IMG/VR virus record: IMGVR_UViG_3300045146_000225
Coordinates: 1 to 64,000 of that record
DNA length: 64,000 nucleotides
Reading direction: 5' to 3' (one strand)
From: a virus
Taxonomy: Duplodnaviria; Heunggongvirae; Uroviricota; Caudoviricetes
Shown: positions 15,112-53,126 of the stretch, piece after piece
How the letters are laid out: the number at the start of each line of letters is the position of its first letter
Position numbering within the stretch: the first letter of the stretch is position 1
Notes under the pieces: model-generated
Told to the model about the DNA's origin: nothing
The model's input: only the letters and a program-made list of their open reading frames with translations
Databases searched by the model: none
Translations under genes and position numbers: made by a program

Positions 15112-15195
15112 TGTTTAAATTAAAAATAAAAACCTAGTTTATGTTTGGACCCCATTTTAAAATGAAATCACATTGCAAATATACAAATATTTTAG
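15112..15195 (-). repeat. Duplicated promoter and leader cassette, copy A (about 84 bp, about 93 % identical to 16015-16098).
   Basis: Contains TATATTTG (15176-15183, minus) and the shared leader ttaaaatgggRNNcaaacataaactaggtttttatttttaat. Confidence 0.7.
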
Positions 15196-15230
15196 GAATC
15201 CTGATACTTCCAATCAAATATACTTTAAAA
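15193..15230. repeat. 38-bp direct repeat, copy 2 (upstream of the tnpB unit, overlapping the stop of 15214-15513).
   Basis: Identical to 13390-13427. Confidence 0.8.
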
Positions 15231-15513
15231 AATCTTCTAAGTATCCTATCGATCCCATTATATAACCATACAATGTGCCATTTACAAGTTTATCGTTTTT
15301 AATAATGCGTTTTTGAATTAGAAATAACTCATAAGTTCCGTACCCATTCTCCCTTAATTTCTTCAAAATATAATCTTTACTATTTGTTGCTGAGTAAATA
15401 AAATAGTCCAGCAATTCATAATCATCGACATTTTCAATATTTCTTTCAATCTTTTGTTTTATGAGATTTAAAGAATCGATATCAAATTTTTGATTTTGTT
15501 CATTCATAATCAT
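15214..15513 (-). CDS. Hypothetical protein (99 aa).
   Basis: ORF with a 4-nt start/stop overlap to the upstream gene. Confidence 0.45.
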   Translation of the reverse strand: MIMNEQNQKFDIDSLNLIKQKIERNIENVDDYELLDYFIYSATNSKDYILKKLRENGYGTYELFLIQKRIIKNDKLVNGTLYGYIMGSIGYLEDFLKYI

Positions 15514-16013
15514 ACAATTGGTTCTTGTGGTGGAGGCATTGTGTTTTTTTGTAATTCCCTTAAATATAAATCTCTCTTTGCTTTAAATTCGGAGAATAGT
15601 TCTTCTGCTTTAGTATCATAATTTTGCAATTTTGAGTTTATTTCTTCATAGTGTTCTTTAAAGTATTTTGCAACTTGATTTTCCGCACTAATATAAGATG
15701 CAACAACAATAGATAATAGCAACGTTACAATGATACCTAAATAAACAAGAAAATCATCCAATCTTTTATTAATTGAATTTAATTTTTCATCAAATTGCTC
15801 AATTTCGCTCTTTAATTCAATGTCTTTTTCTATGTCGCCTTTCTTTTTGTTGAGTGCTAGTGTTTTCTTCATCTCAAATTTGATTTGAGAAACAAGCTTG
15901 TTTTTTTCAAAAGAATATATGGTTAATTGAGCGAGAAAAGCAAAAGCAATACATAATAAGACTATAAACATAACGCTTTTTTGTGAGTCTTTTATTATCA
16001 TTAAAAATTTCAT
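15510..16013 (-). CDS. Membrane protein with two transmembrane segments flanking a coiled coil (167 aa).
   Basis: Hydrophobic segments FIVLLCIAFAFLAQL and LGIIVTLLLSIVVASYI. The promoter box CAAATATA at 16078-16085 is rc TATATTTG. Confidence 0.5.
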   Translation of the reverse strand: MKFLMIIKDSQKSVMFIVLLCIAFAFLAQLTIYSFEKNKLVSQIKFEMKKTLALNKKKGDIEKDIELKSEIEQFDEKLNSINKRLDDFLVYLGIIVTLLLSIVVASYISAENQVAKYFKEHYEEINSKLQNYDTKAEELFSEFKAKRDLYLRELQKNTMPPPQEPIV

Positions 16014-16014
16014 T

Positions 16015-16098
16015 TTATCAATTAAAAATAAAAACCTAGTTTATGTTTGCATCCCATTTTAAAATGAAATCACATTGCAAATATACAAATATTTTAAA
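16015..16098 (-). repeat. Duplicated promoter and leader cassette, copy B. It drives 15510-16013.
   Basis: Same sequence as 15112-15195. Confidence 0.7.
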
Positions 16099-16122: not shown

Positions 16123-16359
16123 ATTTTAGCTGAGCTATCTCAGTCTGAGATTTCCCTGCTTGTACTAAACAAGAAATTTGATACCTTTGTTGTTCGGTTA
16201 TATGAACCAAAGTGCAACTTGTTTTTGGGAGACTTAGGGGGGCAATTTAGCAAATATACCCATCAAGGCAAAGAGGTAATTTCTTACCATCTTTGTTTTG
16301 ATGGATATATTTGATTTTTATTACCATTCCCAAAGTTGCATTTACTACTTGAATCTAAG
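16123..16359 (+). repeat. About 225-bp intergenic repeat element, copy 1. It is an IS30-end-like, MITE-like or structured-RNA candidate.
   Basis: About 90 % identical to 37022-37238. It starts attttagctgagc and ends ccaaagttgcatttactacttgaatctaag. Internal hairpins are present, and there is an internal CAAATATA box. Confidence 0.7.
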
Positions 16360-24989: not shown

Positions 24990-25107
24990 GTGGTTTATCT
25001 TTTATTTAGAAACGTACACGTGTGTCATATAATTATTGCCGATTAGAAAATCACTACAACTAACAACATTTGGTAGAACTTTATTTTGAAAAACAAATAA
25101 AATGTTT

Positions 25108-25115
25108 TATATTTG
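25108..25115 (+). promoter_or_regulatory. Bacteroidota -7 box TATATTTG. It sits inside a 30-bp cassette that is duplicated at 34899.
   Basis: tatatttgttgttataagtatgtatttttt versus tatatttgttgttataaatatgtattattttt. Confidence 0.55.
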
Positions 25116-25157
25116 TTGTTATAAGTATGTATTTTTTTTAACATAAAACTTTCTTAT

Positions 25158-25397
25158 ATGAAAGATATTAAACAAATGGAAGTAGAAGAACTTCGTAAAG
25201 AAATGGATGACCTTTGGGGATACTTGTATATGACAAAGGAAACAGGAACGTATGATAAATTTGAATGGAACGGATTAGATTATTGGGATGCTGATAGACG
25301 ATATCACAAAATATCACAAGAAGTTATTCTACGAAGTTTATTAGAACACGCTCTTAGCAGAAGAGAAAATAAAATATCAAAAAGCAAATCAAGATGA
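25158..25397 (+). CDS. Small protein (79 aa), translationally coupled to the C5 methyltransferase by an ATGA overlap.
   Basis: ORF with AT-rich codon usage like the methyltransferase. Confidence 0.45.
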   Translation: MKDIKQMEVEELRKEMDDLWGYLYMTKETGTYDKFEWNGLDYWDADRRYHKISQEVILRSLLEHALSRRENKISKSKSR

Positions 25398-26425
25398 AGT
25401 ATAAATTTATAGACTTATTCGCAGGAATTGGAGGTTTTAGAATAGGCTTTGAAGAAGCAGGTTTTAAATGCGTATTCACATCAGAAATTAATCCTCATTG
25501 CCAACAAGTTTACGAAACAAACTTTGGAGAAAAACCATTTGGGGACATTACCAAAATCAATCCAGCAGATATTCCAGATTTTGATATTTTATTAGGAGGG
25601 TTTCCTTGTCAACCATTTAGCATTTCTGGTAAAAAAATGGGATTTGAAGACACAAGGGGAACTTTGTTTTTTGATATTTGCCAAATAATTGACAGCAAAC
25701 AACCCAAAGTTGTGGTTTTAGAAAATGTAAAACATTTAATACACCACGACAAAGGAAGAACTTTTACAGTTATTATAAAAGCTTTAATGGACTTAGGTTA
25801 CAATGTAGCGCATAAAATATTAAATGCTAAAGATTTCGGACTCCCTCAAAACAGAGAAAGAATTTTTATCATCGCAACAAAAAATCATTATTTTGATTTT
25901 GCTAAATTAAAAAAGAAAAAGAAAGTTATATTAAGAGATTTTTTAGACACTGAAGGCGATTTTGAATTTATAGACAAATCAGAATACACTTTAATTGACA
26001 TTCCTAAAAAACAAGAAAGTGGTCTTTTATTCGTAGGATACAGAAATAAAAACACTTGGAAAAATGGCATTAGGGAAAATACTGAACATCTTTCAAGGGT
26101 TCATCGGCAACCAAACAGAATTTATTCAATCGATGGAAATCATCCTACAATTCCCTCACAAGAAACAACAGGAAGATTTTTTATTTACATTCCAGAATTA
26201 GATGCAGTTAGGAAATTAACATTGAATGAATGTTATAAAATAATGGGCTTTAAGCCAAATTTTAAAAAACATTCAAATGTCGGGGAACAATATAAACAAA
26301 TTGGAAATTCTGTTGCTATTCCAGTGATAAGAGCCATTGCTGAAAGTATAAACGAACAAAAATTATTAATCGATGAATCACAAAGACAAATTGTTGGAGA
26401 TTTACAAACTCTCCTTTTCGCTTAA
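25394..26425 (+). CDS. DNA (cytosine-5) methyltransferase.
   Basis: Motif I FAGIGG, motif IV GFPCQPFS, motif VI ENV, and a C-terminal Q.GNSV motif. Confidence 0.9.
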   Translation: MKYKFIDLFAGIGGFRIGFEEAGFKCVFTSEINPHCQQVYETNFGEKPFGDITKINPADIPDFDILLGGFPCQPFSISGKKMGFEDTRGTLFFDICQIIDSKQPKVVVLENVKHLIHHDKGRTFTVIIKALMDLGYNVAHKILNAKDFGLPQNRERIFIIATKNHYFDFAKLKKKKKVILRDFLDTEGDFEFIDKSEYTLIDIPKKQESGLLFVGYRNKNTWKNGIRENTEHLSRVHRQPNRIYSIDGNHPTIPSQETTGRFFIYIPELDAVRKLTLNECYKIMGFKPNFKKHSNVGEQYKQIGNSVAIPVIRAIAESINEQKLLIDESQRQIVGDLQTLLFA

Positions 26426-27524: not shown

Positions 27525-27740
27525 TTATTTCAAATCTTTCCTCTCGTCGCAGAGTTTCTGGACCAATTTTGCACTGTATGGACGCTTGTTACAGTTCCAG
27601 TTAATCTCCCGGTAAACCGTGCTCATGTCCGTCTCAACTATCTGAGCAATTTTATTTTTCGGTGTTCCTGTTTGGAGCAAAGCATCAATTTGATACCTTT
27701 GCTCTATGGTAGTCGATTTCCCCCGTTTCGTTATTTGCCA
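27525..27740 (-). pseudogene. IS30-family transposase N-terminal HTH fragment. It has no start codon and begins in frame directly after the ligA stop.
   Basis: TIEQRYQIDALLQTGTPKNKIAQIVETDMSTVYREINWNCNKRPYSAKL matches IS30 LSEREEIRAGL...IATALNRSPSTISREVQRNRGRRYYKA. Confidence 0.45.
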
Positions 27741-29809
<2,069 letters not shown>

Positions 29810-29830
29810 TTGTCTGTGTTCCATATTTAA

Positions 29831-29865
29831 CCTGAAAAATGAGTATTCAATAACTCATTTTCAGG
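29831..29865 (-). terminator. Near-perfect 14-bp hairpin after dam.
   Basis: cctgaaaaatgagt attcaata actcattttcagg. Confidence 0.5.
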
Positions 29866-29938
29866 TATCATTTTAACTGGAGTTCTCGGTGATGTTGTAA
29901 CGAATATTACTTTGCTGTCAATCCTTGCCATAATCTAT

Positions 29939-30847
29939 TTAAAATGCTAATTCCGTTTGAAATTCCAATTTTGGATATTTTTTGTTTGCCTCGTTTCCAT
30001 AATTTGAAATTAAAATGTGGCTTGCGGTAGATTTAAACCGATTCCTAATATTTACAGCATAGGATTTACCATATTCATCAACAATCAAATCATTATACAG
30101 TTTATCTGTTAACGGTGTCCTGCCAATTACCATTAATGCCTTACATTTAAGATTCAAAAAACTAATAGCTAATTCAGCATGGTGTTTTTCGTTAAAACCA
30201 TCTTTATACTCAGCATTTCCATAATCAGAGAAAACGCAATCATAAGGAGGGTCTAAAAACATAAAATCATCTTCGTTTGCCATTTCAAAAATATTCTTGT
30301 AATCCAAATTGTATATTTCTGTATTAGCAAGTAACTCACTGTGTGCTTTGGTTACCAAGGAAGTATTGAGGTTAGCATATCTGCCGTAAGGAACGTTAAA
30401 TTCACCTTTTGCATTATACCTAATCATGCCCGAATACGCAGTTTTATTGATAAAAAAGTACAAAAGAGCATCAGAATATTTCTTTTTTGTCAAATCGTTG
30501 AACATATCACGAATTTGGTAATACAAAGTCTCATTTTCGTCATCAACTCTTAAATCAGGTGTTTCTGCTTTTAACTCTTCAAACTTCCTTCGATTGATTA
30601 AGTATGTTTTCTCTATTTCCTGAAGCTCTTTACTAAGTATCTCAAAATCTGATTTAACTCCTTTGTAAAAAGCCATCAATCTCGAGTTAATGTCGTTTAT
30701 TATAGCATTTTTGGGCTCTAAATGAAAGTACAATGCCCCACCTCCAAAAAAGGGTTCAATATACCTTCCTGTGAAATTGGGAATGTGTTTTATTAAATTA
30801 GGTATTTCCTTCGATTTACCGCCCCTATATTTTACAAGTGGTTTCAT
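29939..30847 (-). CDS. dam: DNA adenine methyltransferase, Dam family (D12 class N6-A).
   Basis: N-terminal YRGGKSK...EPFFGGGALYF and motif IV FLDPPY. Confidence 0.85.
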   Translation of the reverse strand: MKPLVKYRGGKSKEIPNLIKHIPNFTGRYIEPFFGGGALYFHLEPKNAIINDINSRLMAFYKGVKSDFEILSKELQEIEKTYLINRRKFEELKAETPDLRVDDENETLYYQIRDMFNDLTKKKYSDALLYFFINKTAYSGMIRYNAKGEFNVPYGRYANLNTSLVTKAHSELLANTEIYNLDYKNIFEMANEDDFMFLDPPYDCVFSDYGNAEYKDGFNEKHHAELAISFLNLKCKALMVIGRTPLTDKLYNDLIVDEYGKSYAVNIRNRFKSTASHILISNYGNEANKKYPKLEFQTELAF

Positions 30848-30852
30848 ATATT

Positions 30853-31155
30853 TTACTTTTTAAATCCAGATTTATACTCAATCGCGCTTTCATGTACAAT
30901 GCCAAGTACCTTTTCTGCATTTTCCTCATCTTTCACAACTGAATAAATCTGTTCAGCTAGCCAAAGATTTAACAGTTGGATTTTGTCGGTTTCTAACAAA
31001 TCGACAAGAATTGAAACTTGTTCCCTTTTTGCACGTCTTTCTCCACGCTAAATTTTGCAATATGTAGCTGTATCTATCTCCAAAGCAGCAGCCAATTGTC
31101 TTTGATGCATTAGTTTTTGTTCCTTTAACTGTCTAATTCTATCAGCAAACAACAC
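30853..31155 (-). pseudogene. XRE/Cro-type HTH controller (C-protein-like) gene with an in-frame TAG at a conserved Glu position. Its stop is 5 nt upstream of the dam ATG.
   Basis: (GTG)LFADRIRQLKEQKLMHQRQLAAALEIDTATYCKI*RGERRAKREQVSILVDLLETDKIQLL... The TAG at 31048-31050 replaces the E of the canonical IsriErG motif. Confidence 0.5.
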
Positions 31156-31452
31156 GTTGTAAATTTTGTCTTAACATTATTTGGCAAATATAAATCTTAA
31201 TATTGGAAAAGTCAATTTTTTTCATACAGTAAATGCTAAATCATTGGCAGGTGGTCTTTTCTTCGGCTTGTTGGTAACGGTCGCTGCTATGAGCGGTGGC
31301 GGGCTTCGTGGCTGCTCCCGTATCCCACGTTACATACCTTACCTGCGAGACGAGACGTTGTTGTACGCTTGTCGTTATTGTTTTCTAATCTAATTATCTC
31401 ATTTTTAACACACTGTCTCCCAGTCCCAGCGATGGAGCGGGATGGACTTGAA

Positions 31453-31508
31453 GGCACATTTGGCATTTTTGGATCGAGGGCAAGCTCTGCGGGAATGCCA
31501 AATGTGCC
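31453..31508. other. Perfect 15-bp stem (ggcacatttggcatt / aatgccaaatgtgcc) inside a 300-bp GC-rich non-coding stretch.
   Basis: Read directly from the sequence. The flanking ORFs have no protein-like features. Confidence 0.4.
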
Positions 31509-31540
31509 TGAACGCGAAGGGATGGTGCACGTTAGCGAAA

Positions 31541-34500
31541 TCATTGTTCCATTACCTTTTTTACAAGTTTATCAATCTTTTCAAGTTCTTCCGCCAAATG
31601 TTTCTTTAAATCGACTCTTATTTTACCTAATACATGAGCAGTTAAATCACCATCTGGTGGATTTAAAATTATGTATTTAATTGTCTTCTCGTGACAAGTT
31701 TTCCCTAATGTGGCGAGTTCGATGTGAAATTCATCTTTGTCACTAAAGAGAGGAAAATAAACATCTAAGATTTTCTTATGAACGTCTCTTGCCCCAAATA
31801 ATCCTTTTGTTTGGAAGTCTTTCATAAGCAAGTTTGGAATAGATGAATTTAAAATGGATGATAAGTAATATGCTTCATTTTCATCATTTGTATAGCAAGC
31901 GTAGGCTTTGCTTTCATTAATAAAATCAAGGTCTATTTTTGTCCTATCAATTACAAGTGCATTAGCATCTTTTGCAGATGCATTATACAAAACACAAAAC
32001 CTTGCATTTAAATTTTGGTCAGTTAATTTGTTCAACCAGTTCAAATAATCTTCTGCGTTTATTTCACTGTTTTTTTCAGTTTTATTTATATCCCAAATTC
32101 GTTCAGCGTTTACAAACCATTTAGAAGCATTTAAAAATCCTTTATTCATTAAATCTTCAGATGTGTGTAAATGGATTTTTTTTTGCTCGTCACTACTTAA
32201 TTCGACGGTTATCGGTAGAGTGACAAAATCAGGTTTATATAGTAGGAATGGGAGAATTGATTTAGAAATTGCCGTTCGATAGATAAATCTACTTTCAATT
32301 TTACCGGAAAAATCTAATCCTTTCCAAGGAGCTTTTGCATCTGCTTTTATTGAATCTGCCGTTTTTATATTAATAATTCTGTCATTGAAATCATCGGGCA
32401 TTTCCTGATTTAAATCGACAAAATAAAATGCTCTCGGGACAATAGTCGCACCTTGTTTGAAACGGTTCTTATATGGATTCACATTTTCCTGTGAACTAGA
32501 TTTCCTGGTCGAAAATGCTGTTGAGTTTCCTTGCTTTGCATAATACCATGTGACAGTAGATTCAGTTAATTTATTTTTGGCAATATCATAATGACAGTTA
32601 TGAGCCGGTAATCTGCCTGAAAACTGTTTTCCTTCTAAACCGGTTGCCTTTATTTTTCTATCGGCATGTGCCTTTTCAGAGATAAGTACACAACTTGGGA
32701 TTCTGAACAAAGGAGTAACATCTGTTAAATCCCAAATATCTATTAAACGAAATCCTTTGGCGACACCACTTCTTGAATTATCATGATGGTCGGCACTAAA
32801 AAATGCCCTTGGTAAAACAAATGCAATTTTACCTTGGTCTTTTAGAAAATAACTACTGCAATATGACTGAAAAATTGCAGCAATTTCTAAGTGCGGATAA
32901 TTAGCTGCTTTTTTCGGTTTAACATCATATTTGATTGCAAGTTTATCAAGAATGTTTTGATAATCTTCATTTTTTATGGAACTATAAGTAAACCAAGGTG
33001 GGTTTCCAATTATGTAATCAAATTTATTTGCTAAGAAATATGGTTTGTACATGTTAGAAATAATGAATTTCCAGATACTATCACTACCTTTTTCTTTAAC
33101 CTTTTTAAACCCCTGATAAATTTTGTAAAAACTATCGACTAATTGAGGCGTCAAACCACTTGTATGTTGATTTAAAATATTTTCGAAAACTGAATTTTCG
33201 ATATTTTTTTTATCCATTGTCTGTTCCGAAAGTTCCTCGCAGACATCCAGCACGGTATCAAATACTTCACCATTTTCTAATACCTGTGCATTTATCATGT
33301 ACTTATCTTTATCGATGTGCATAATAAATTCACCTCCGAATAAATCCCCAATACATTCTGTAGCAAGTAAGGTATTTGCAAGTATTACATTTAGGTGAAC
33401 AGGTTTTCTTGCTTTTGAAATGGTATTACCTAGAGCAAGAAGCAATGTTGTTTTTGCAATTTGAACTGACAAAGGATGAATATCTATACCATAAACTTGA
33501 TCGTTAATTTCTTCAGGTGTAATTTCTTTATTTGTTTCTCTAATTCGGTGAATTATAGCTCGAAGAAATGAGCCACTTCCACATGAAGGGTCAAGAATTT
33601 TGTCTGTTTTTGTAAATTCAAACTCGTTAACTATTCTTTCACAAAGCCAATCGGGAGTATAGTATTCACCGAGAGAATGACGTGTATCTAAATCAATTAA
33701 TTCCTGATAAACACCTTTGAGAATATCTTCATTAACATTGGTAAAATCAAAGGCTGAAATCTCTTGAGCTATTAATCGAAATACTTTTTTAAGCTTTGGA
33801 TAATCGCGGTCCCCGTTTACCCAATGAAAAAAATCATTGTCGACAAAGTTGGAAATATTGTAAGTATGGAAAATGCTACCGTCCAAAACTTTCCGCATTT
33901 CATCATCATCGATATAATCATCATTTGATACAACAGCATATGCAATCATTTTAGAAAATACGCTCAAATACGTATGGATTAAAAAGATATCTTCACGAGC
34001 ATCAAATGAACCGTATGCGATACTAAGAAACTTATGCCATTGTTCATACGAAACTTGAATTACTCCATATTTTTTAGCTTCGTTAAACCAATTATTCAGT
34101 TCTCGAAAAGATTCAATAAAAACTGGACTTTGATATCCAAAAGCTTCTTCTATACTTTTTAAAGTCGCTTTTTGTTTTTCTTCTTTGAATAAAAACCTGT
34201 CAAGCCAATAGTAAAACTCTTCTGAATTGGTTTCATTTAGTACAAAAGATGCACTTTCTACCTCATTCAGGATTAGTTCATGTCCCAATAAAGAATCCAG
34301 TTTATCCAAACAACTAACATCTGGTGCAACGACTTTCCAATTGATAAAGTCCGATGCAATCAATGTGAAATTATACCCGACACCAGATTTGAATTGTCCA
34401 AGTAAATAGCATGCTAATTGTTCTTTGGCATGATTATATGTTGCTTTTAAATCATTCTCAAATTCTATGATAATGGTATTGAACAAAGTATCAGCACTGC

Positions 34501-34705
34501 CACGATGTAACTTGTCCTCACGGGGGATGTTAACTATTGTAGCTTCAGCACCAAGTGTAATTTTATCAATTATTTTTTGAATTTCCTTGTCAGAGGAATA
34601 AAGCCCATTCAATAAATCTTTAAACGCTTCTTTTTTAGTCAATTCATTATTTGAGGCTTTAACCTTTTGATAATATTGTCGAATAAGCTCTTTTTTATCT
34701 ATCAT
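31541..34705 (-). CDS. Type IIL (MmeI-like) restriction-modification fusion protein. It has an N-terminal PD-(D/E)xK nuclease, a gamma-class N6-adenine methyltransferase and a C-terminal target-recognition region.
   Basis: N-terminal GSADTLFNTIIIEFENDLK, motif I DPSCGSGSFL, motif IV GNPPW. Length 1054 aa. Confidence 0.75.
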   Translation of the reverse strand: MIDKKELIRQYYQKVKASNNELTKKEAFKDLLNGLYSSDKEIQKIIDKITLGAEATIVNIPREDKLHRGSADTLFNTIIIEFENDLKATYNHAKEQLACYLLGQFKSGVGYNFTLIASDFINWKVVAPDVSCLDKLDSLLGHELILNEVESASFVLNETNSEEFYYWLDRFLFKEEKQKATLKSIEEAFGYQSPVFIESFRELNNWFNEAKKYGVIQVSYEQWHKFLSIAYGSFDAREDIFLIHTYLSVFSKMIAYAVVSNDDYIDDDEMRKVLDGSIFHTYNISNFVDNDFFHWVNGDRDYPKLKKVFRLIAQEISAFDFTNVNEDILKGVYQELIDLDTRHSLGEYYTPDWLCERIVNEFEFTKTDKILDPSCGSGSFLRAIIHRIRETNKEITPEEINDQVYGIDIHPLSVQIAKTTLLLALGNTISKARKPVHLNVILANTLLATECIGDLFGGEFIMHIDKDKYMINAQVLENGEVFDTVLDVCEELSEQTMDKKNIENSVFENILNQHTSGLTPQLVDSFYKIYQGFKKVKEKGSDSIWKFIISNMYKPYFLANKFDYIIGNPPWFTYSSIKNEDYQNILDKLAIKYDVKPKKAANYPHLEIAAIFQSYCSSYFLKDQGKIAFVLPRAFFSADHHDNSRSGVAKGFRLIDIWDLTDVTPLFRIPSCVLISEKAHADRKIKATGLEGKQFSGRLPAHNCHYDIAKNKLTESTVTWYYAKQGNSTAFSTRKSSSQENVNPYKNRFKQGATIVPRAFYFVDLNQEMPDDFNDRIINIKTADSIKADAKAPWKGLDFSGKIESRFIYRTAISKSILPFLLYKPDFVTLPITVELSSDEQKKIHLHTSEDLMNKGFLNASKWFVNAERIWDINKTEKNSEINAEDYLNWLNKLTDQNLNARFCVLYNASAKDANALVIDRTKIDLDFINESKAYACYTNDENEAYYLSSILNSSIPNLLMKDFQTKGLFGARDVHKKILDVYFPLFSDKDEFHIELATLGKTCHEKTIKYIILNPPDGDLTAHVLGKIRVDLKKHLAEELEKIDKLVKKVMEQ

Positions 34706-34898
34706 AAATTATTAAAATTAGTTTTTCAAATGTAAAGAATTCATCTCAATAATCCGGGTGAGCGTTGGCATTTTCTTTTTTTGTCTTTTAATCAGTCGTT
34801 AATTATCTGCTGTGTCTGTTTTTTCGGCTTGCGTACAACAATAACAAATATACCATGTTAATATTGTGACTTTTTAATTAAGTTAACGTATAATATGG

Positions 34899-34906
34899 TA
34901 TATTTG
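34899..34906 (+). promoter_or_regulatory. TATATTTG box, the second copy of the duplicated promoter cassette.
   Basis: See 25108. Confidence 0.55.
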
Positions 34907-34928
34907 TTGTTATAAATATGTATTATTT

Positions 34929-35189
34929 TTGTTTTACCTTTTAAAAATAAATATTATGAATTACGAAGAACTGAGAAAAGAGAAGTGGATGAGGGAAAAT
35001 TCACCAAAATCACAATTACTTGGTAATAATTTTTTACCGATGAATCCAGAAGTAGGTTTTTTCATAACAGTAGAGGGACTACAAATATCACAAGACTTCT
35101 TTAAAGAAGAATATGAACAAATAAGTAAATCATATTATTCTGTTATGAAAAAACTGGATGAATATTATAAAAACTCAAAACAAAAATAA
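34929..35189 (+). CDS. Hypothetical small protein. The true start is probably the ATG at 34957.
   Basis: ORF downstream of the promoter box. Confidence 0.4.
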   Translation: MFYLLKINIMNYEELRKEKWMRENSPKSQLLGNNFLPMNPEVGFFITVEGLQISQDFFKEEYEQISKSYYSVMKKLDEYYKNSKQK

Positions 35190-35359
35190 TATTACGTATA
35201 ACGGCTGGCAATAAGGCAAGTGGCTGATTACGGACTACGAACCTATCAATTTGCACTGCCGTTTGAGCGGGTTAGGTACTTTAAATAACCACAGAACCCG
35301 CCATTTGCTTTATTGCGTGTTATGGTTTCGGTTTTTATTATCAATCTAAAAATATTAAA

Positions 35360-35635
35360 ATGACAACAGAAGAATTTGCAATTAAACAAGCCGAAATGAG
35401 TAATGAAGAACTCATTAAACTGGCAGATAAACAGGTTTCAGAACTTGCTAAAACTGGTGGTAGGAGTCATAAAATGTCAGTTCCTCCACAAATTACCGAT
35501 ACTGATATGATTTTTTGTGAACTTATCAAACGGTTTGAAAAATTAATATCTAATCCAATTTGTCAAAACTGCGGAAAATATAAAACAATACAAGGCAATG
35601 GTATTATGTACCAACTTTGTGAGTGCGGTTCTTAA
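35360..35635 (+). CDS. Small protein with a C-terminal zinc ribbon (CQNCG...CECG).
   Basis: ORF. Confidence 0.45.
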   Translation: MTTEEFAIKQAEMSNEELIKLADKQVSELAKTGGRSHKMSVPPQITDTDMIFCELIKRFEKLISNPICQNCGKYKTIQGNGIMYQLCECGS

Positions 35636-36166
35636 ACTGAACCATAACGGTTGGCGGTATGCGCCGTAGGGGATTTCGGAGCTGCGTCTGTATCACCCGT
35701 TACGAACCTTGATGCGAGCTGAAACGCTTGATATACCACTAAAACCCCTATGGCGTATGACCGCTTGTTACCTGCTGGGCTTTATTTTTTTCATCTTTCA
35801 ATGTTTGCCAATCTCACTGTCAGCGTAGGCTTGCATGCTCTTTTGCAATTTTTGGTCAAGCGTTGGCTCGTGTGGCTTGCAAATGTGCTGCAATGTGGGT
35901 TGGTTATTCATTCTTGTTTTTCTGTCATTTTTTTTAGCAAATTGTCCGCTGAGTCGTTTTCTAACCTTGCTGCCAACTTACTTATATGCGTACCTGAAGA
36001 AACAGGTGAAGTCAGACCTGACTCTGTACGAAATCCAGCAAATTTTAAGCGTCTCAATTTTTTTTTTCAAAAACACCTATAAATGAACTACTTAACCAAG
36101 TAAAAATCGAAAATAAAAGAACATACAGTTGTAATCAGTTGAATTTGTTTGACTTATAACGCAATG

Positions 36167-36571
36167 CTAGTGATTTACAATAGTAAAAGCTATGAGCAAT
36201 CCAATTCCAGCAACTAAGGTACCAATCATAAATTCATTAAACCACGTAATCCAGTCACTGTCTTTTACTGTAAAATCATTATTCTCAACTTTTTTAATAC
36301 GTTTCATAATCAACCGAGCTGAGATATAATGTGCTAAAAATCCTATCAAGATTGTAAGACCAAAAAGGATCAGAGCGATATAATATAACCACAAAAGTTT
36401 AGCCTCTTTGATAGGAACAATATCTTTCAAAAAAGTTAAACTAATTGCAAGAGCACCGCTACTCAGATATAAAGCTTGAGAATCAAATTTTTCAATACTA
36501 TATCTAAAATCAGTGTATAAATCTGCAATGTATTTATTCTTAATTTCTTTTAGTTCTTCTTCTGGTGTCAT
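36167..36571 (-). CDS. Membrane protein with 3-4 transmembrane segments (134 aa). It is flanked by 20-bp direct repeats at 35975 and 36604.
   Basis: Hydrophobic segments. AT-rich codon usage. Confidence 0.5.
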   Translation of the reverse strand: MTPEEELKEIKNKYIADLYTDFRYSIEKFDSQALYLSSGALAISLTFLKDIVPIKEAKLLWLYYIALILFGLTILIGFLAHYISARLIMKRIKKVENNDFTVKDSDWITWFNEFMIGTLVAGIGLLIAFTIVNH

Positions 36572-36755
36572 AATATCTGGTTTCGTTATTTATGCTTGTA
36601 CCTAACTTACTTATATGCTTACCAAAGGTGCGAATTTACTACATATGTTTGTTGTATATGCGTACTTTTTTGTTGCCAAATATAGCACAAATATATGTTT
36701 TTTTTAAATATCATCGAATGGGGATTTGATTTTTTTTTGCAATTCTTTGTTACGA

Positions 36756-36823
36756 CAGAAGGTGAATGGGATGGCACAAGAGCATACGGTGAAACGCTGT
36801 TGGCTGGTAGAAAAACACTTGAA
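36756..36823 (+). repeat. 68-bp identical duplicate of an internal segment of gene 37772-38350 (the other copy is at 37937-38004).
   Basis: cagaaggtgaatgggatggcacaagagcatacggtgaaacgctgttggctggtagaaaaacacttgaa at both sites. Confidence 0.85.
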
Positions 36824-36871
36824 GGTAGATTCAAGCTTCAAATGCAACTTTAGTAAGTGCAAATTTATAAT

Positions 36872-37024
36872 TTAAAAATTCAATGTACGAAGAAAATTTA
36901 TGTTTTTTTTTCGCGGTAGCGTATTAAGTTTATCCTTAACACGCTTAATATCCTCATCAGTAATATTTTCAAAAGATGATTTCTTGGGAAAATACTGCCG
37001 AATCAAGCCATTCACATTCTCATT
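36872..37024 (-). pseudogene. IS30-family transposase C-terminal fragment. An IS-end-like sequence extends to 36823.
   Basis: NENVNGLIRQYFPKK...LNTLPRKKNINF matches the IS30 C-terminus NENTNGLIRQYFPKK...LNNRPRKTLKF. The adjacent sequence ggtagattcaagcttcaaatgcaactttag matches 22 of 30 positions of the 225-bp element terminus. Confidence 0.55.
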
Positions 37025-37238
37025 TTAGCTGAGCTTCTCAGTCTTGGATTTCCCTGCTTGTACTAAACAAGAAATTTGATACCTTTGTTGTTCGGTTATA
37101 TGAGCAAAAGTGCAACTTGTCTTGGGAGACTTAGGGGGGTAATTTAGCAAATAGATGGTGAGAAATTACCCCTTTGTTTTGAAAAATATTTGATTTTTAT
37201 TACCATTCCCAAAGTTGCATTTACTACTTGAATCTAAG
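37022..37238 (+). repeat. About 225-bp repeat element, copy 2.
   Basis: See 16123-16359. Confidence 0.7.
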
Positions 37239-37771: not shown

Positions 37772-38350
37772 ATGCGGCTAATAGAAACAACAATATTGGA
37801 ATACATCAACCCAATTAAAAAAACAGACGTGTTTTACCACGGATCAACAGACAAAAACATGAGCGGTAAGAACGGCATACATGTCGGAACTAAATTAGCA
37901 GCAACACAAGCACTACAAGCAAGGATAGGTGTTCCGGCAGAAGGTGAATGGGATGGCACAAGAGCATACGGTGAAACGCTGTTGGCTGGTAGAAAAACAC
38001 TTGAACTTAAAAACACGGAGTTAGGATACAACTGCACTACCGGATATAATTGCGGGAAAGATTTACCAGAAGAAGATTATTATCCCACACAAAGAGAATA
38101 TAGAGCGTCATTCTCAGATGGAACCCCCATTCCGTTCAATTGCAAACCAATCGTGTTCCCTGTTAAAATCACAGGACAAATGACAAACACGCAATCTTAC
38201 CCCCACACCGACGACAAAGCAAACTCCATGATGAAAAGGAACTTAAAAATGGGCAACGCTAAAAGTGGTTACTACTACACCAATATAGCGCAGGATTCCG
38301 GCTCGATATCTGCGGTAGTCCCAGACAAGTCATTCCTCGAAATACTGTAA
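37772..38350 (+). CDS. Hypothetical protein (192 aa).
   Basis: ORF. A terminator hairpin follows. Confidence 0.5.
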   Translation: MRLIETTILEYINPIKKTDVFYHGSTDKNMSGKNGIHVGTKLAATQALQARIGVPAEGEWDGTRAYGETLLAGRKTLELKNTELGYNCTTGYNCGKDLPEEDYYPTQREYRASFSDGTPIPFNCKPIVFPVKITGQMTNTQSYPHTDDKANSMMKRNLKMGNAKSGYYYTNIAQDSGSISAVVPDKSFLEIL

Positions 38351-38362
38351 CAGCAAACAAAA

Positions 38363-38398
38363 AACTCTGGTTGTACCTTAACAACCAGAGTTTTTTTT
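38363..38398. terminator. Bidirectional rho-independent terminator between 37772-38350 (+) and nrdJ (-).
   Basis: aactctggttg taccttaa caaccagagtt, followed by a T-run and preceded by an A-run. Confidence 0.65.
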
Positions 38399-42808: not shown

Positions 42809-43756
42809 TTAATTTGAAACGTGACTATCCACGAGCGACTTGAAAATGTGTGCTATTACATCGACAGTCCATCCGTTTCCAAGCATATTGTATCTTTCGG
42901 TATCCGTAACAACTCCAGTATAATTATCTGGCACAGTCTGTAATCTTTCAACTTCAACCGGTGTTAATCTTCTGTAATAACCAAGAACATCGAATATTTC
43001 AACTAACGCTTTTGGATAAAAATTCTTACCGGTGCTGTGTGCTAATTCAGTAGTTAATGTAGGTACTTTACCGGTCGCTTTATAACTTTTAGGTAAAAAC
43101 TTCATTAATGTTTCAACTCTTTCATCTTTAATGTTGTATTTAACATCCACGACTGGCTCTAATATATCTTTTAGCGTAACATTGGTTTTAGTTGGTTTAA
43201 CAACATTGGGTATATTTGTCCAATAATATCTCGGTCTATTCTGTGCTGTAATATCACCACTGCAAATGAACACAGGTTCAAGACCAATAGCATCACTCAA
43301 TACCTTTTTCCATTTATCGCTCATTTTAACGTTTTCCAATAAGAAATATCTTGGCTTTAAAATAGTCAAAGCATACATATATTCCCAAAACAAGTAGGAT
43401 TGCCCTTGAAATTCAAAACCATTATTCTTCAGCGATAGATAATGCTCCAATGTCAATATCTCAACATTATCTTTTGTCGTCATGCCATTTCGTTTACCAG
43501 CGAATGAAAAGGATTGACACGGACTCCCTCCGATTAATAAATCAATCTTGGGTAAATTATCGTAATTGATGTTCTTCACATCACCAAGCTGTATCGTTTT
43601 AGGATAATTGGATTGTGTTACCTTCATCGCTGGTTTGTTAATCTCACTCGCAAAATAGTTTTCGTATTCGATACCAACTCGATTAAGAGCTATTTGACCA
43701 CACGATTGCCCGTCAAACAAACTAAGCACATTCGTTATTTTTTCCATATTATACAA
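42809..43756 (-). CDS. DNA (cytosine-5) methyltransferase, the second one in the window.
   Basis: Motif I LFDGQSCG, motif IV GGSPCQSFSFAGKR, motif VI LLENV. Confidence 0.85.
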   Translation of the reverse strand: MYNMEKITNVLSLFDGQSCGQIALNRVGIEYENYFASEINKPAMKVTQSNYPKTIQLGDVKNINYDNLPKIDLLIGGSPCQSFSFAGKRNGMTTKDNVEILTLEHYLSLKNNGFEFQGQSYLFWEYMYALTILKPRYFLLENVKMSDKWKKVLSDAIGLEPVFICSGDITAQNRPRYYWTNIPNVVKPTKTNVTLKDILEPVVDVKYNIKDERVETLMKFLPKSYKATGKVPTLTTELAHSTGKNFYPKALVEIFDVLGYYRRLTPVEVERLQTVPDNYTGVVTDTERYNMLGNGWTVDVIAHIFKSLVDSHVSN

Positions 43757-46009: not shown

Positions 46010-46077
46010 TTAAAAAGATTTAAAAATTAATACTAAATATTTAACGTTTTAATATATTAAATAATTATTTTTTCGAG

Positions 46078-46200
46078 AGTAAAATTTCACTTTTTAAACT
46101 AAAAAATTATTTTTTTGGAAGCAAAATTTCACTTTTTAAACTAAAAATTTATTTTTTTGAAAGTAAAATTTCACTTTTTTAAACTAAAAATTTATTTTTA
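46078..46200. repeat. 3 x 41-bp direct repeats (gtaaaatttcactttttaaactaaaaatttatttttttg).
   Basis: Seen directly in the sequence. Confidence 0.85.
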
Positions 46201-46467
46201 CACACAGGTACACATGCACACAGGTACACACACGTACATGCGCACACATGCACACACATGCACACACGTACATGCGCACACATGCACACACGTACATGCG
46301 CACACATGCGCACACGCATTTATATATAATACTAGTATTATATATAAATGTATATAAATATAATTAATATAATTAAATATAAATTAAATATAATAAGTAT
46401 AATAAGTATAAATTAAATATAATAAATATAATAAGTATAATAAGTATAATAAGTATAATATTCGCGC

Positions 46468-47070
46468 GCGGACGTACGTATGCAAGACGTGGTTTTTTTT
46501 TCGAGTTCGGTCATAAAACAAAAACCAAGAAACTACAAATAACAGCAGCATACATTCCTTTCGAACAGAAACGATGTTTTTTTCAATTCAAATACAAAAA
46601 CAGTACATTGACACGTCTTAATATGTTTTATTCGATTTAAACGCATTTATGAACGTCGGTTTTTTCGTGTTTTTGAAACCAACAAGATTTTTCACAAAAA
46701 AAACATGCCTCGCACACGCGGACGTACGTATGCAAGACGTGGTTTTTTTTTCGAGTTATTTTTCACAAAAAAAACATGCCTCGCACACGCGGACGTACGT
46801 ATGCAAGACGTGGTTTTTTTTTCGAGTTCGGTCATAAAACAAAAACCAAGAAACTACAAATAACAGCAGCATACATTCCTTTCGAACAGAAACGATGTTT
46901 TTTTCAATCCAAATACAAAAACAGTACATTGACACGTCTTGATGTGTTTTATTCGATTTAAACGCATTTATGAGCGTTTGTTTTTTTCGTGTTTTTGAAA
47001 AACCAACAAGATTTTTCACAAAAAAAAACATGCCTCGCACACGCGGACGTACGTATGCATGGCATGTTTT
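46468..47070. repeat. Two roughly 250-bp direct repeat units, each preceded by a GC-rich palindromic core and followed by A-run / hairpin / T-run elements.
   Basis: Spacing of core copies is 250, 71 and 254 bp. The units are more than 95 % identical. Confidence 0.85.
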
Positions 47071-47319
47071 TTCCGTTATTTTAAAAACTATTGGAATTTA
47101 ACAACGACCCAAAATGGAATGTATGTAACTTAACGATGGTTTCTTGTGCGTATCAAAAAAACAAGTTTTCTTACCCTAAATGCGAGTGTAGCGTGAATTT
47201 CTACACGAGAGATGCCGTTTCTTTCCTGTGCGAGAATAAACGTAACAAATTGACAACCACTTGTTAAAAAAAACAAAAATATATTTAATTGCATTTAGCA
47301 TTTTTTAATAAAAAAGTAG

Positions 47320-52721: not shown

Positions 52722-53078
52722 GTGTCTGATTTAGAATTACAAACTTTAAAAATACAAATAACAATGAAAAAAGAAAAAAACTTGAATAAACCACAGAAAC
52801 AGGCATTAAATATACATGTTGTTATACGCAGGTTTTCTAACTGGTTTAAAAGAAATTTTATTTGTTCAACAATTTTTAGCAATGGACATATTCCAGAACC
52901 ATTTTTAACTGAAACCGAATTTTCAATTCATACTAAAATATGTAAAAGATGTAAGTATGTTTTAGGCTTAGGTACATGGAAACATATCCCACCTCCACCA
53001 AATTCAACACCAGAACAAATAAAATCATTTCAAAAATATAAAGAGGGACAATTGGACGAATTACGTAGGTCTGTTTAA
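52722..53078 (+). CDS. Hypothetical protein (118 aa).
   Basis: ORF with a CKRCKY motif. Confidence 0.4.
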   Translation: MSDLELQTLKIQITMKKEKNLNKPQKQALNIHVVIRRFSNWFKRNFICSTIFSNGHIPEPFLTETEFSIHTKICKRCKYVLGLGTWKHIPPPPNSTPEQIKSFQKYKEGQLDELRRSV

Positions 53079-53126
53079 ACTTGCGTATAACTTACTTATA
53101 TGCTCACCTAATATTAAAAAAAATAG

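What the first reader, a model, noticed from the sequence alone, without database searches (positions are those of the whole stretch)
29939..34705. MmeI-like Type IIL restriction-modification fusion, an amber-interrupted controller gene and Dam, carried by a lytic T4-like phage
The 1054-aa protein has an N-terminal D-x9-E-x-E-x-D-x-K nuclease-like motif. It also has gamma-class N6-adenine methyltransferase motifs (DPSCGSGSFL, NPPW) and a long C-terminal region, which is the MmeI/Type IIL single-chain layout. Directly downstream on the same strand lies an XRE-type HTH gene whose stop is 5 nt from the dam ATG, a controller-protein arrangement. All three genes use AT-rich codons unlike the phage core. 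A phage carrying a potentially active restriction enzyme plus several protective methyltransferases suggests inter-phage warfare or host-DNA targeting. It could alternatively be a domesticated methyltransferase-only enzyme.
Basis: partly seen in the sequence, partly recalled or inferred. Interest (0 to 1): 0.7.

Follow-up and report, generated by a model that had tools for sequence, protein, structure and literature searches.

The report
Phage island: restriction enzyme plus stolen methylase
A large phage of Bacteroidota carries a 7.5-kb, transposon-bracketed island that holds an intact single-chain restriction-modification enzyme next to the wreck of a second, unrelated restriction system from which only the protective Dam methylase survives; this is a clean example of known phage behaviour, not a new kind of system.

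Summary
The sequence observations are real. There is an intact 1054-aa gene (31541-34705, minus strand), an HTH gene interrupted by TAG, and a dam gene that starts 5 nt after the HTH stop. All three are AT-rich relative to the phage core.

The three-gene interpretation is wrong.
- **The 1054-aa protein.** It is a stand-alone Type IIG restriction-modification fusion: a PD-(D/E)XK nuclease (fold closest to BpuSI and DrdV), a gamma-class N6-adenine methyltransferase, and a target-recognition region. It belongs to a large family that is solitary in bacterial chromosomes. It is not a member of the MmeI family.
- **The HTH and dam genes.** They come from a separate, mobile controller-methylase-endonuclease cassette of Bacteroidota whose endonuclease is of the AlwI family. 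The window copy is 93% identical in DNA to the bacterial copies.
- **State of that cassette in the phage.** The controller has ATG->GTG at its start and GAG->TAG at codon 36. The endonuclease has an ochre codon and is cut off after about 45 codons at an IS30-family terminal repeat. Only dam is intact (dN/dS about 0.09).
- **The island.** Perfect 30-nt IS30-family inverted repeats (29780-29809 and 37209-37238) bracket it.
- **Population.** The island is fixed at 99.8-99.9% identity in contigs from several other datasets.
- **TAG.** It is an ordinary stop codon in this phage.

Verdict: partly supported, moderately interesting, a new member of known kinds.

The parts
31541..34705 (-). Intact stand-alone Type IIG restriction-modification gene (1054 aa). 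Domains: nuclease about residues 1-140, helical connector about 140-320, gamma-class N6A methyltransferase about 320-680, recognition and C-terminal region about 680-1054.
   Evidence: PADLOC REase_MTase_IIG, 3e-68; AF2 pLDDT 90.8.
34286..34705 (-). N-terminal PD-(D/E)XK nuclease domain. Key residues: E54, D72 (34492-34490), E81 (34465-34463), E83, Q96xxxY100, D119.
31351..31540 (.). 190-nt spacer of phage-core composition (GC 0.479). It contains a perfect 15-16 bp hairpin at 31452-31509. Its origin is unknown. It is probably a sliver of native phage DNA between two separate insertions.
   Evidence: hairpin; no homology to any fetched locus; GC; no Rfam match.
29795..31350 (-). Remnant of a mobile bacterial controller-methylase-endonuclease restriction cassette with an AlwI-family endonuclease. 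It is 93% identical in DNA to Bacteroidota copies over 29795-31269. Homology extends to 31350 in two loci.
30853..31155 (-). Controller (XRE-type HTH) pseudogene. Its start codon is ATG->GTG and codon 36 is GAG->TAG (31050-31048), inside the recognition helix.
   Evidence: dN/dS is 0.35-0.39 against the closest bacterial copies, versus 0.03-0.07 between bacterial copies. The TAG is shared by all five related contigs.
29939..30847 (-). Intact Dam-family N6-adenine methyltransferase (302 aa), predicted to be GATC-specific.
   Evidence: 93-95% identical to bacterial copies; closest solved structures are DpnM and EcoDam; the GATC-contact residues align; dN/dS about 0.09.
29810..29931 (-). Stump of the AlwI-family endonuclease gene. 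ATG at 29931; CAA->TAA at codon 35 (29829-29827); homology ends at 29795, inside the IS30 repeat.
29780..29809 (-). Solo IS30-family terminal inverted repeat, which is the left boundary of the island. Its inner 15 nt overlap the endonuclease gene by microhomology.
36826..37238 (.). Internally deleted IS30-family element: a degenerate repeat at 36826-36856, transposase fragments at 36872-37015 and 37025-37150 (minus strand), and a perfect repeat at 37209-37238. This is the right boundary of the island.
   Evidence: NF033563, 7.1e-11; full-length copy with a 339-aa transposase in a Saprospiraceae genome bin.
34706..36825 (.). Rest of the island. It holds small ORFs of unknown function (34929-35189 +, 35360-35635 +, 36167-36571 -). 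It also holds matches to the Bacteroidota -7 promoter consensus TAnnTTTG, at about 34729-34736 on the minus strand upstream of the restriction gene and at 34899-34906 on the plus strand. A 76-nt copy of part of gene 37772-38350 lies at 36748-36823.

Best explanation
The region is a mosaic accessory island of 7,459 bp (29780-37238) in a large Bacteroidota myophage. It is bracketed by inverted copies of an IS30-family terminal repeat. It joins two unrelated pieces of bacterial restriction-modification DNA.

**Piece 1: the 1054-aa gene.** It is an intact, self-sufficient Type IIG enzyme. One chain carries a PD-(D/E)XK nuclease, a gamma-class N6-adenine methyltransferase and a recognition region. 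In bacteria it works as a solitary gene. I infer that in the phage it methylates its own recognition site on phage DNA. That would protect the phage from the homologous enzymes common in Bacteroidota. Because every nuclease residue is preserved, I also infer that it probably still cuts unmodified DNA, meaning host DNA or competing phages.

**Piece 2: the front of a controller-methylase-endonuclease cassette.** The phage kept only the antidote. The Dam-family methylase is intact and under purifying selection, and it most likely methylates GATC. That would protect the phage from GATC or GGATC-type restriction, including the very cassette it came from. The controller is dead (nonsense codon, weakened start codon). 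The endonuclease is dead (ochre codon, truncated at the IS30 repeat).

**Shown:** gene integrity and decay, the origins of both pieces, the repeat boundaries, and fixation in the phage population.

**Inferred:** methylation specificities, nuclease activity, the selective benefit, and IS30-mediated assembly.
For: **Solitary state of the enzyme in bacteria.**

**Family and domains.**

**No decay in the restriction gene.** It keeps 127 of 128 positions that are at least 85% conserved in 62 homologues.

**Separate origin of HTH+dam.**
- Eight bacterial loci begin with the same HTH(100 aa)-Dam(302 aa) pair. In the five that extend far enough, a 559-aa AlwI-family endonuclease follows (split into two ORFs in one of them). 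The other three end inside or just after the start of the downstream gene.
- The window is 88-93% identical in DNA to these loci over 29795-31269 or 31350.
- The bacterial endonuclease scores 207 bits against RE_AlwI and matches N.BspD6I at 4.6e-50.

**Lesions.**
- Controller: ATG->GTG and GAG->TAG.
- Endonuclease: CAA->TAA, and truncation at the repeat.
- dam dN/dS is about 0.09. The controller is at 0.35-0.39, versus 0.03-0.07 among bacterial copies.

**Dam specificity.** The closest solved relatives are the GATC methylases DpnM (2.5e-26) and EcoDam, with the contact residues aligned.

**Selective context.** GATC (observed/expected 0.25) and GGCC (0.17) are the two most avoided 4-nt palindromes in the window.

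**IS30 identity.**
- Three perfect 30-nt copies, none expected by chance.
- A transposase fragment matches NF033563 at 7.1e-11.
- The same end occurs in nine Bacteroidota genome-bin contigs, often at contig ends.
- A full element is present in L023.

**TAG is a normal stop codon.**

**Fixation.** The same island, TAG codon and repeats occur at 99.8-99.9% identity in contigs from a JGI sample, two ENA assemblies and a Logan run. A second Logan run is 100% identical.
Against: - No biochemical or methylome data exist, so both methylation specificities and the nuclease activity are inferences.
- Position 83 of the nuclease motif is E, not the canonical K. E is the majority state in the family, and BamHI uses E at the equivalent position (from memory), but activity is unproven.
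- The only amino-acid polymorphisms in the restriction gene among phage contigs (G34V, C99G, L168I) all fall in the N-terminal 170 residues. Only one synonymous change is seen alongside them. This hints at relaxed or changing constraint on the nuclease part.
- There is no target-site duplication next to the outer repeats. The island therefore need not have moved as one transposon, and it could have been built by recombination or deletion between IS copies.
- No island-free relative of the phage was found, so insertion is inferred from composition and homology, not from an empty site.
- GATC is still strongly avoided although the phage has dam. Either dam arrived recently or protection is incomplete.
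Confidence: 0.6

Rival explanations
1. The 1054-aa protein is kept only as a methyltransferase. The phage needs the methyl mark to escape homologous host enzymes. The nuclease is silent, inactive or irrelevant during infection.
For: - Homologues at 65-84% identity are common in Bacteroidota and Ignavibacteria, the likely host range, so the mark alone would be useful.
- The neighbouring cassette shows this phage keeps methylases and loses nucleases.
- All three amino-acid polymorphisms lie in the nuclease and connector part.
- Position 83 is E rather than the canonical K.
Against: - D72, E81, E83, Q96, Y100 and D119 are all intact, and 127 of 128 conserved positions are retained.
- The controller and endonuclease genes next door have already picked up stop codons.
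- E at position 83 is the majority state in the bacterial family, where the enzyme is presumably active.
Confidence: 0.3
2. The island is selfish cargo. It is a recently arrived IS30-bounded transposon whose restriction gene behaves as an addiction or hitch-hiking element with no benefit to the phage.
For: - Perfect inverted repeats bracket the island.
- IS30 debris is present at three sites in the window.
- The AT-rich composition is foreign to the phage core.
Against: - The island is fixed with identical structure in contigs from several datasets.
- dam is under purifying selection while its neighbours decay.
- The transposase is deleted and there is no target-site duplication, so the unit is not currently mobile on its own.
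Confidence: 0.1
3. One reading: one three-gene MmeI-like system in which the HTH protein controls the 1054-aa enzyme and Dam is its companion methylase. The amber codon would act as a regulatory or recoded feature.
For: All three genes are on the same strand and adjacent. The 5-nt spacing between the HTH stop and the dam start is real.
Against: - The enzyme is solitary in every bacterial locus examined.
- HTH+dam belongs to an AlwI-type cassette at 93% DNA identity.
- A 190-nt stretch of unrelated, core-like DNA separates the two pieces.
- The amber replaces a conserved GAG.
- TAG is used as a stop codon by the largest ORFs that look like real genes.
Confidence: 0.03

Closest known systems
Type IIG restriction-modification enzymes BpuSI and DrdV (solved structures 3S1S, 7LO5)
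   Same: - Single chain, with the same domain order: N-terminal PD-(D/E)XK nuclease, helical connector, gamma-class N6A methyltransferase, recognition domain.
- The whole-chain model also hits both.
   Different: - Sequence identity is only 8-15%.
- Whole-chain TM-scores are 0.3-0.4.
- The third catalytic position is E here, whereas the canonical residue is K.
MmeI family (Type IIL; PMC2731913, PMC4833311)
   Same: - Stand-alone single-chain enzyme with no companion methylase.
- The N-terminal acidic residues are spaced much like MmeI E51/D70/E80 (E54/D72/E81 here).
- The domain order is the same.
   Different: - It fails the family's own criterion of similarity along the whole length.
- Only the methyltransferase motif region aligns: Pfam MmeI_Mtase scores 34 bits over 56 residues, and a family profile matches MmeI at 2.6e-09 over profile positions 305-393.
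- K82 of MmeI corresponds to E83 here.
- Methylation of only one strand is untested.
Orphan methyltransferases captured by virulent phages, for example the lactococcal 936-type phage methylase that protects against DpnII (PMC4190342)
   Same: A lytic-type phage carries a Dam-like methylase of bacterial restriction-system origin, presumably to escape GATC-type restriction.
   Different: Here the donor cassette is still recognisable at 93% DNA identity. Its dead controller and truncated endonuclease are still attached, so the capture and decay can be read directly from the sequence.
Controller-protein-regulated Type II restriction systems
   Same: A small XRE-type HTH gene sits immediately upstream of, and is co-oriented with, the methylase and endonuclease genes in the bacterial cassette. 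PADLOC 'Control_protein' matches at 4.2e-05.
   Different: In the phage the controller is a pseudogene and its endonuclease partner is gone. It is unrelated to the neighbouring Type IIG gene.
IS30-family insertion sequences and composite transposons (compare the IS30-bounded 'IScream' prophages, PMC12823448)
   Same: IS30-family terminal repeats lie in inverted orientation around a block of cargo genes, and one copy has decayed.
   Different: - The repeats bracket an island inside a phage genome, not the whole phage.
- No intact transposase is present and no target-site duplication was found.
- The host group is Bacteroidota, not Clostridia.

Membership tests
Type IIG restriction-modification enzyme | Nuclease, methyltransferase and recognition functions in one polypeptide | tested here: met
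   - The N-terminal domain has a PD-(D/E)XK fold.
- Pfam finds Eco57I and N6_Mtase, with motifs DPSCGSGSF and NPPW.
- PADLOC REase_MTase_IIG matches at 3e-68 over residues 200-1009.
- The confident full-length model hits MmeI, DrdV, BpuSI and PglX.
Type IIG restriction-modification enzyme | Functions without a separate methylase or specificity subunit | tested here: met
   In four sets of bacterial loci (five independent places for P0010, plus loci for P0050, P0006 and P0003), the homologues are flanked by housekeeping or unrelated genes.
Type IIG restriction-modification enzyme | AdoMet-dependent cleavage at a fixed distance from an asymmetric site | not testable with these tools
   This needs purified protein and cleavage mapping.
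MmeI family / Type IIL | Sequence similarity to MmeI along the entire length (criterion of PMC2731913) | tested here: not met
   - Among MmeI-named Pfam families, only MmeI_Mtase is hit, at residues 369-424.
- A family profile matches MmeI (5HR4) only over profile positions 305-393, at 2.6e-09. That is no better than its matches to CamA or Type I M subunits.
MmeI family / Type IIL | PD-ExK residues equivalent to D70, E80 and K82 | tested here: inconclusive
   D72 and E81 are invariant, but position 83 is E here (E in 42 and K in 21 of 63 members). The MmeI nuclease domain could not be aligned by sequence.
MmeI family / Type IIL | Host protection by methylation of one strand only | not testable with these tools
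   This needs methylome data or biochemistry.
Controller-protein-regulated restriction system (as a unit with the 1054-aa gene) | Controller gene genetically linked to the enzyme it regulates in other genomes | tested here: not met
   No HTH gene lies immediately next to any homologue of the 1054-aa gene. The HTH gene is instead always linked to Dam, and to an AlwI-family endonuclease wherever the contig extends that far.
Controller-protein-regulated restriction system (as a unit with the 1054-aa gene) | Intact HTH reading frame | tested here: not met
   GAG->TAG at codon 36 and ATG->GTG at the start codon. TAG is a normal stop codon in this phage.
Dam family (D12-class N6A methyltransferase, GATC) | Family model above its curated threshold, with the catalytic DPPY motif | tested here: met
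   TIGR00571 scores 203.6 bits against a cutoff of 114.85. Pfam MethyltransfD12 matches at 1.2e-40. DPPY is visible in the alignment.
Dam family (D12-class N6A methyltransferase, GATC) | GATC specificity | tested here: inconclusive
   - The best solved relatives are the GATC enzymes DpnM and EcoDam.
- The stretch aligned with EcoDam LCRYNLRGEFNVPFGRY reads MIRYNAKGEFNVPYGRY. This keeps the residues I recall as GATC contacts: R124, N126, N132, P134, R137, Y138 (numbering from memory).
- No methylome data are available.
IS30-family insertion sequence | IS30-type DDE transposase | tested here: inconclusive
   - Only fragments remain in the window.
- The 47-aa C-terminal piece matches NF033563 at 7.1e-11, which is 42 bits and below the 80-bit full-length cutoff.
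- A 339-aa IS30-like ORF adjoins the same repeat in L023. It was recognised by eye from its NGLVRQYIPKK motif, not scanned.
IS30-family insertion sequence | Terminal inverted repeats | tested here: met
   - Perfect 30-nt copies lie at 16330, 29780 (inverted) and 37209, with a degenerate partner at 36826.
- Matching repeats flank the full element in L023.
IS30-family insertion sequence | Short target-site duplication flanking the inserted unit | tested here: not met
   The flanks are ...CCTG|IR and IR|ATTT..., with no duplication around either the island or the mini-element.
T4-like phage | T4-type core genes and closest relatives among T4-like phages | tested here: inconclusive
   - A gp55-like late sigma factor, UvsW-like helicase, gp32-like SSB and tail sheath are present.
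- The best relatives of a 1192-aa conserved protein are Lak, Flavobacterium, Tenacibaculum and Chryseobacterium large phages, at 26-32% identity.

The most novel reading that the evidence does not exclude
The phage uses an active stand-alone Type IIG restriction enzyme offensively. Its own DNA enters the cell already methylated, while the enzyme cuts unmodified host DNA or co-infecting phages. This cargo would have been delivered into a virulent-type phage genome by an IS30-family composite element that host transposase can still move in trans.
Probability: 0.25. Interest if true: 0.65.

Novelty: new member of a known kind. Interest (0 to 1): 0.4.

Why it matters
- **A readable record of methylase capture.** The donor cassette is still 93% identical in DNA to the bacterial copies. 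Its controller and endonuclease are caught in the act of decaying while the methylase stays under selection.
- **A concrete test case.** The intact Type IIG gene is fixed in a large Bacteroidota phage. Does a phage that shows no lysogeny genes in this window use a restriction enzyme against its host or its rivals?
- **A route of gene flow.** IS30-family elements appear to carry defence and counter-defence genes between Bacteroidota chromosomes and their phages.
- **A caution for annotation.** Adjacent restriction-related genes on one strand need not form one system.

Tried and rejected
- **Stop-codon recoding.** Treating TAG as a sense codon barely raises ORF coverage (47.2 to 48.5 kb). TAG terminates the 1985-aa, 838-aa (ribonucleotide reductase) and 387-aa ORFs. 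The only tRNA in the window is tRNA-Met. Rejected.
- **A conserved element downstream of the restriction gene.** Bacterial loci also have 450-630 nt gaps after the gene, but these gaps do not align with the window's spacer. Rejected.
- **A structured RNA in the GC-rich spacer.** There is no Rfam match. Folding z-scores are -0.9 and -2.2. Only one strong hairpin is present. Left unexplained.
- **An island-free relative of the phage.** None was found.
  - INPHARED megablast gave no match.
  - Ligase-based scans of IMG/VR and of metagenomes gave nothing close.
  - Loci found through ribonucleotide reductase are only 39-58% identical and not syntenic.
- **Target-site duplication around the repeats.** None found.
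- **Paralogy among the small island ORFs.** None found.
- **The Haloferax HVO_A0006 paper (PMC4389544).** It lists a Melioribacter Type IIG homologue, but that is a different 1042-aa protein with PD-x14-EAK, not this family.

Full report
**1.

The minus strand carries a 1054-aa ORF (31541-34705), a 302-aa ORF (29939-30847), and between them an XRE-type HTH frame (30853-31155) broken by TAG at 31050-31048.
- Pfam finds Eco57I (8.5e-17), N6_Mtase (7.4e-16) and a short MmeI_Mtase match in the large protein. It finds MethyltransfD12 (1.2e-40) in the small one, and HTH_31 (3.1e-07) in the read-through HTH.
- The HTH stop lies 5 nt before the dam ATG.
- The cassettes have GC 0.32-0.34, against 0.48-0.50 for the adjacent ligase and ribonucleotide reductase genes.

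**2. The setting is a phage**

The window encodes a tail sheath, a tail fibre protein, a gp55-like late sigma factor, a RuvC-like resolvase, a UvsW-like helicase, a gp32-like SSB, ribonucleotide reductase and ThyA.
- Many large ORFs have no Pfam match.
- The nearest detectable relatives of a conserved 1192-aa protein are large phages of Bacteroidota (Lak, Flavobacterium MaF61, Tenacibaculum pT24, Chryseobacterium), at 26-32% identity.
- 'T4-like' is therefore true only in the loose sense of shared replication and late-transcription modules. Lifestyle cannot be read from the window.
- Matches to TAnnTTTG, which I recall as the Bacteroidota -7 promoter consensus, precede several genes, including the restriction gene.

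**3. The 1054-aa protein**

It belongs to a large family. There are 6014 cluster representatives at E <= 0.001 and 1052 at E <= 1e-30, and members of about 1055 aa are 65-84% identical across Bacteroidales, Ignavibacteria, Melioribacter and Chitinophagales.

*Nuclease motif.* In an alignment of 63 diverse members, D72, E81 and D119 are invariant. E21, E54, G69, F82, A93, Q96, L97 and Y100 are at least 90% conserved. Position 83 is E in 42 and K in 21. This is the PD-(D/E)XK residue set plus a QxxxY motif.

*Structure.*
- AlphaFold2 gives a confident model (pLDDT 90.8, pTM 0.87).
- The whole chain resembles CamA, PglX, M.BseCI, MmeI, DrdV, LlaBIII and BpuSI, at TM-scores of 0.3-0.4 normalised to the query.

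*Family assignment.*
- PADLOC's REase_MTase_IIG model matches residues 200-1009 at 3e-68.
- By sequence, MmeI is matched only over the methyltransferase motif region. The protein therefore has the MmeI, DrdV and BpuSI layout but is not a member of the MmeI family as its authors define it (PMC2731913).

*Integrity.* The window copy keeps 127 of the 128 positions that are at least 85% conserved in the other 62 sequences. That places it among the four best-conserved of the 63 sequences.

**4. The enzyme is a solitary gene in bacteria**

Loci for four homologues (72%, 68%, 75% and 83% identical) show it between housekeeping or unrelated genes, with no HTH gene or dam beside it. DNA homology to the window stops at the ends of the coding sequence.

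**5. HTH and dam come from elsewhere**

- Dam homologues at 93-95% identity are abundant in Bacteroidota.
- Their loci all begin with the same HTH(100 aa)-Dam(302 aa) pair with the same 5-nt spacing. Where the contig extends far enough, a 559-aa AlwI-family endonuclease follows. Many of the contigs are only about 3.1 kb long, or lie next to IS110, IS91 or tyrosine-recombinase genes.
- The endonuclease scores 207 bits against RE_AlwI and is homologous to N.BspD6I.
- Window 29795-31269 is 92-93% identical in DNA to six of these loci. Two more distant loci are 88% identical, and their homology extends to 31350.

Against the bacterial copies, the window shows three lesions:
- The controller start codon is GTG, not ATG.
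- Controller codon 36 is TAG, not GAG. This Glu lies in the KIERGER recognition helix.
- The endonuclease gene has CAA->TAA at codon 35. Its homology ends after about 45 codons, at 29795.

dam is intact, with dN/dS of about 0.09 against bacterial copies. The controller is at 0.35-0.39 against its closest relatives, compared with 0.03-0.07 among bacterial copies (small counts).

TAG is an ordinary stop codon here. It ends the 1985-aa, 838-aa and 387-aa ORFs, and reading it as sense adds almost no ORF coverage.

**6. Boundaries**

- The endonuclease stump runs straight into a 30-nt sequence (29780-29809). The same sequence recurs perfectly at 37209-37238 in inverted orientation and at 16330-16359. 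None is expected by chance.
- The copy at 37209 ends an internally deleted IS30-family element (36826-37238). Its C-terminal transposase fragment matches NF033563 at 7.1e-11.
- The same end occurs in nine Bacteroidota genome-bin contigs, often at contig ends. In a Saprospiraceae contig it flanks a full element with a 339-aa transposase and a matching inverted repeat.
- The island 29780-37238 (7,459 bp) is thus bracketed by inverted IS30-family ends.
- There is no target-site duplication. The inner 15 nt of the left repeat overlap the endonuclease gene by microhomology. Recombination or deletion at IS copies is therefore as likely as a single transposition.
- Between the two cassettes lies 190 nt (31351-31540) of core-like GC (0.479) with a perfect hairpin and no detectable relatives. 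I read it as a sliver of native phage DNA between two separate insertions, but it remains unexplained.

**7. Population evidence**

- The island, the TAG codon and both repeats recur at 99.8-99.9% identity over up to 14-16 kb in contigs from a JGI sample, two ENA assemblies and a Logan run. A second Logan contig is 100% identical over its 5.9 kb.
- Window and variants differ in the restriction gene by G34V, C99G and L168I plus one synonymous change.
- The ribonucleotide reductase differences are mostly synonymous.
- All three replacements fall in the first 170 of 1054 residues. The chance of that under uniform placement is about 0.004 (my arithmetic). None touches a catalytic residue.

**8. 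Likely working**

GATC (observed/expected 0.25) and GGCC (0.17) are the two most avoided 4-nt palindromes in the window. This phage lineage has therefore long faced GATC- and GGCC-specific restriction.
- It carries a Dam-family enzyme whose closest solved relatives are the GATC methylases DpnM and EcoDam, with the contact residues aligned (residue roles from memory). It also carries a Dcm-type C5 methyltransferase and a further methyltransferase-like gene.
- I conclude that dam is a captured antidote. From memory, AlwI cleavage at GGATC is blocked by Dam methylation, which fits a GATC methylase protecting against this cassette's endonuclease.
- For the Type IIG enzyme, the mark it writes would protect the phage from the homologous enzymes of its hosts. 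Because the nuclease residues are all intact while neighbouring genes decay, I favour an enzyme that is still active as a nuclease. This step is inferred.

**9. Comparison and novelty**

- Phage-borne orphan methylases of restriction-system origin are well known, for example the lactococcal 936-type phages (PMC4190342).
- Phage-borne restriction systems are also known, mainly in temperate phages: P1 EcoP1I and the staphylococcal phi42 Sau42I (both from memory).
- About eight IMG/VR contigs hold near-full-length relatives of this enzyme family at 25-32% identity.
- IS30-bounded prophages have been described in Clostridia (PMC12823448). That arrangement differs from this one.
- The finding is therefore a new member of known kinds. 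Its modest extra value lies in the legible decay series and the IS30 bracketing.

Noticed in passing
whole window; 25394-26425 (+), 42809-43756 (-): GATC (observed/expected 0.25) and GGCC (0.17) are by far the most avoided 4-nt palindromes. Besides dam, the phage encodes a Dcm-type C5 methyltransferase and a second methyltransferase-like gene (phrog_116).
   Followed up: partly
16123-16359 and 15118-16096: A second copy of the IS30-family transposase-proximal end (85% identical to 37022-37238, with a perfect 53-nt terminus) abuts a two-gene AT-rich cassette (15214-16013). That cassette is flanked by 77-nt direct repeats that are 97% identical.
   Followed up: partly
13603-14805 (-): A 400-aa ORF carries a Cas12f1-like TNB domain (TnpB-like). 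This is another transposon-derived gene inside the phage genome.
   Followed up: no
27525-27701 (-): A third decayed IS30-like transposase N-terminal fragment lies just 3' of the NAD-dependent ligase gene. The ligase (GC 0.48) is therefore flanked by IS30 debris on both sides.
   Followed up: partly
36748-36823 and 37930-38005: A 76-nt stretch from inside the 192-aa gene (37772-38350) is duplicated at 97% identity. The copy ends 2 nt from the degenerate IS30 repeat. This suggests an IS-associated rearrangement.
   Followed up: partly
31351-31540: A spacer of core-like GC carries a perfect 15-16 bp hairpin (GGCACATTTGGCATT ... AATGCCAAATGTGCC, 31452-31509). An 85-aa ORF here has an ATG that overlaps the restriction gene's TGA (ATGA). 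No homologue and no RNA family were found.
   Followed up: partly
54631-55818 (+): The thymidylate synthase (395 aa) carries an inserted HNH-endonuclease-like segment at about residues 135-225.
   Followed up: no
46050-47073: A dense field of tandem repeats: three 42-nt units, ACACATGC-type units of 8-14 nt, and AT-rich 9-nt units. It is followed by a 286-nt repeat present twice at 83% identity. This may be an origin or a regulatory region.
   Followed up: no
52041-52252 within 51042-52388 (+): The gp32-like SSB gene has a 24-nt repeat array that encodes a Q/P-rich C-terminal tract.
   Followed up: no
35954-35994, 36583-36623, 53068-53108; 25098-25139, 34889-34930: Two recurring intergenic motifs were seen: AACTTACTTATATGC(N)TACC, and a 42-nt motif containing TATATTTG. 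They are possibly phage or Bacteroidota-type promoters.
   Followed up: no
L095 (ENA ERZ27250193), equivalent to window 28397 and 38353-38391: One population variant of the same phage has a nonsense mutation in the ligase gene (G458*). It also has a cluster of about 25 differences in the terminator-like spacer between the 192-aa gene and the ribonucleotide reductase gene.
   Followed up: no
L009 and L097 (Logan contigs): Both 5,903-bp contigs end exactly at window position 29780, the outer end of the IS30 repeat. This is expected if the 30-nt repeat breaks k=31 assemblies.
   Followed up: yes
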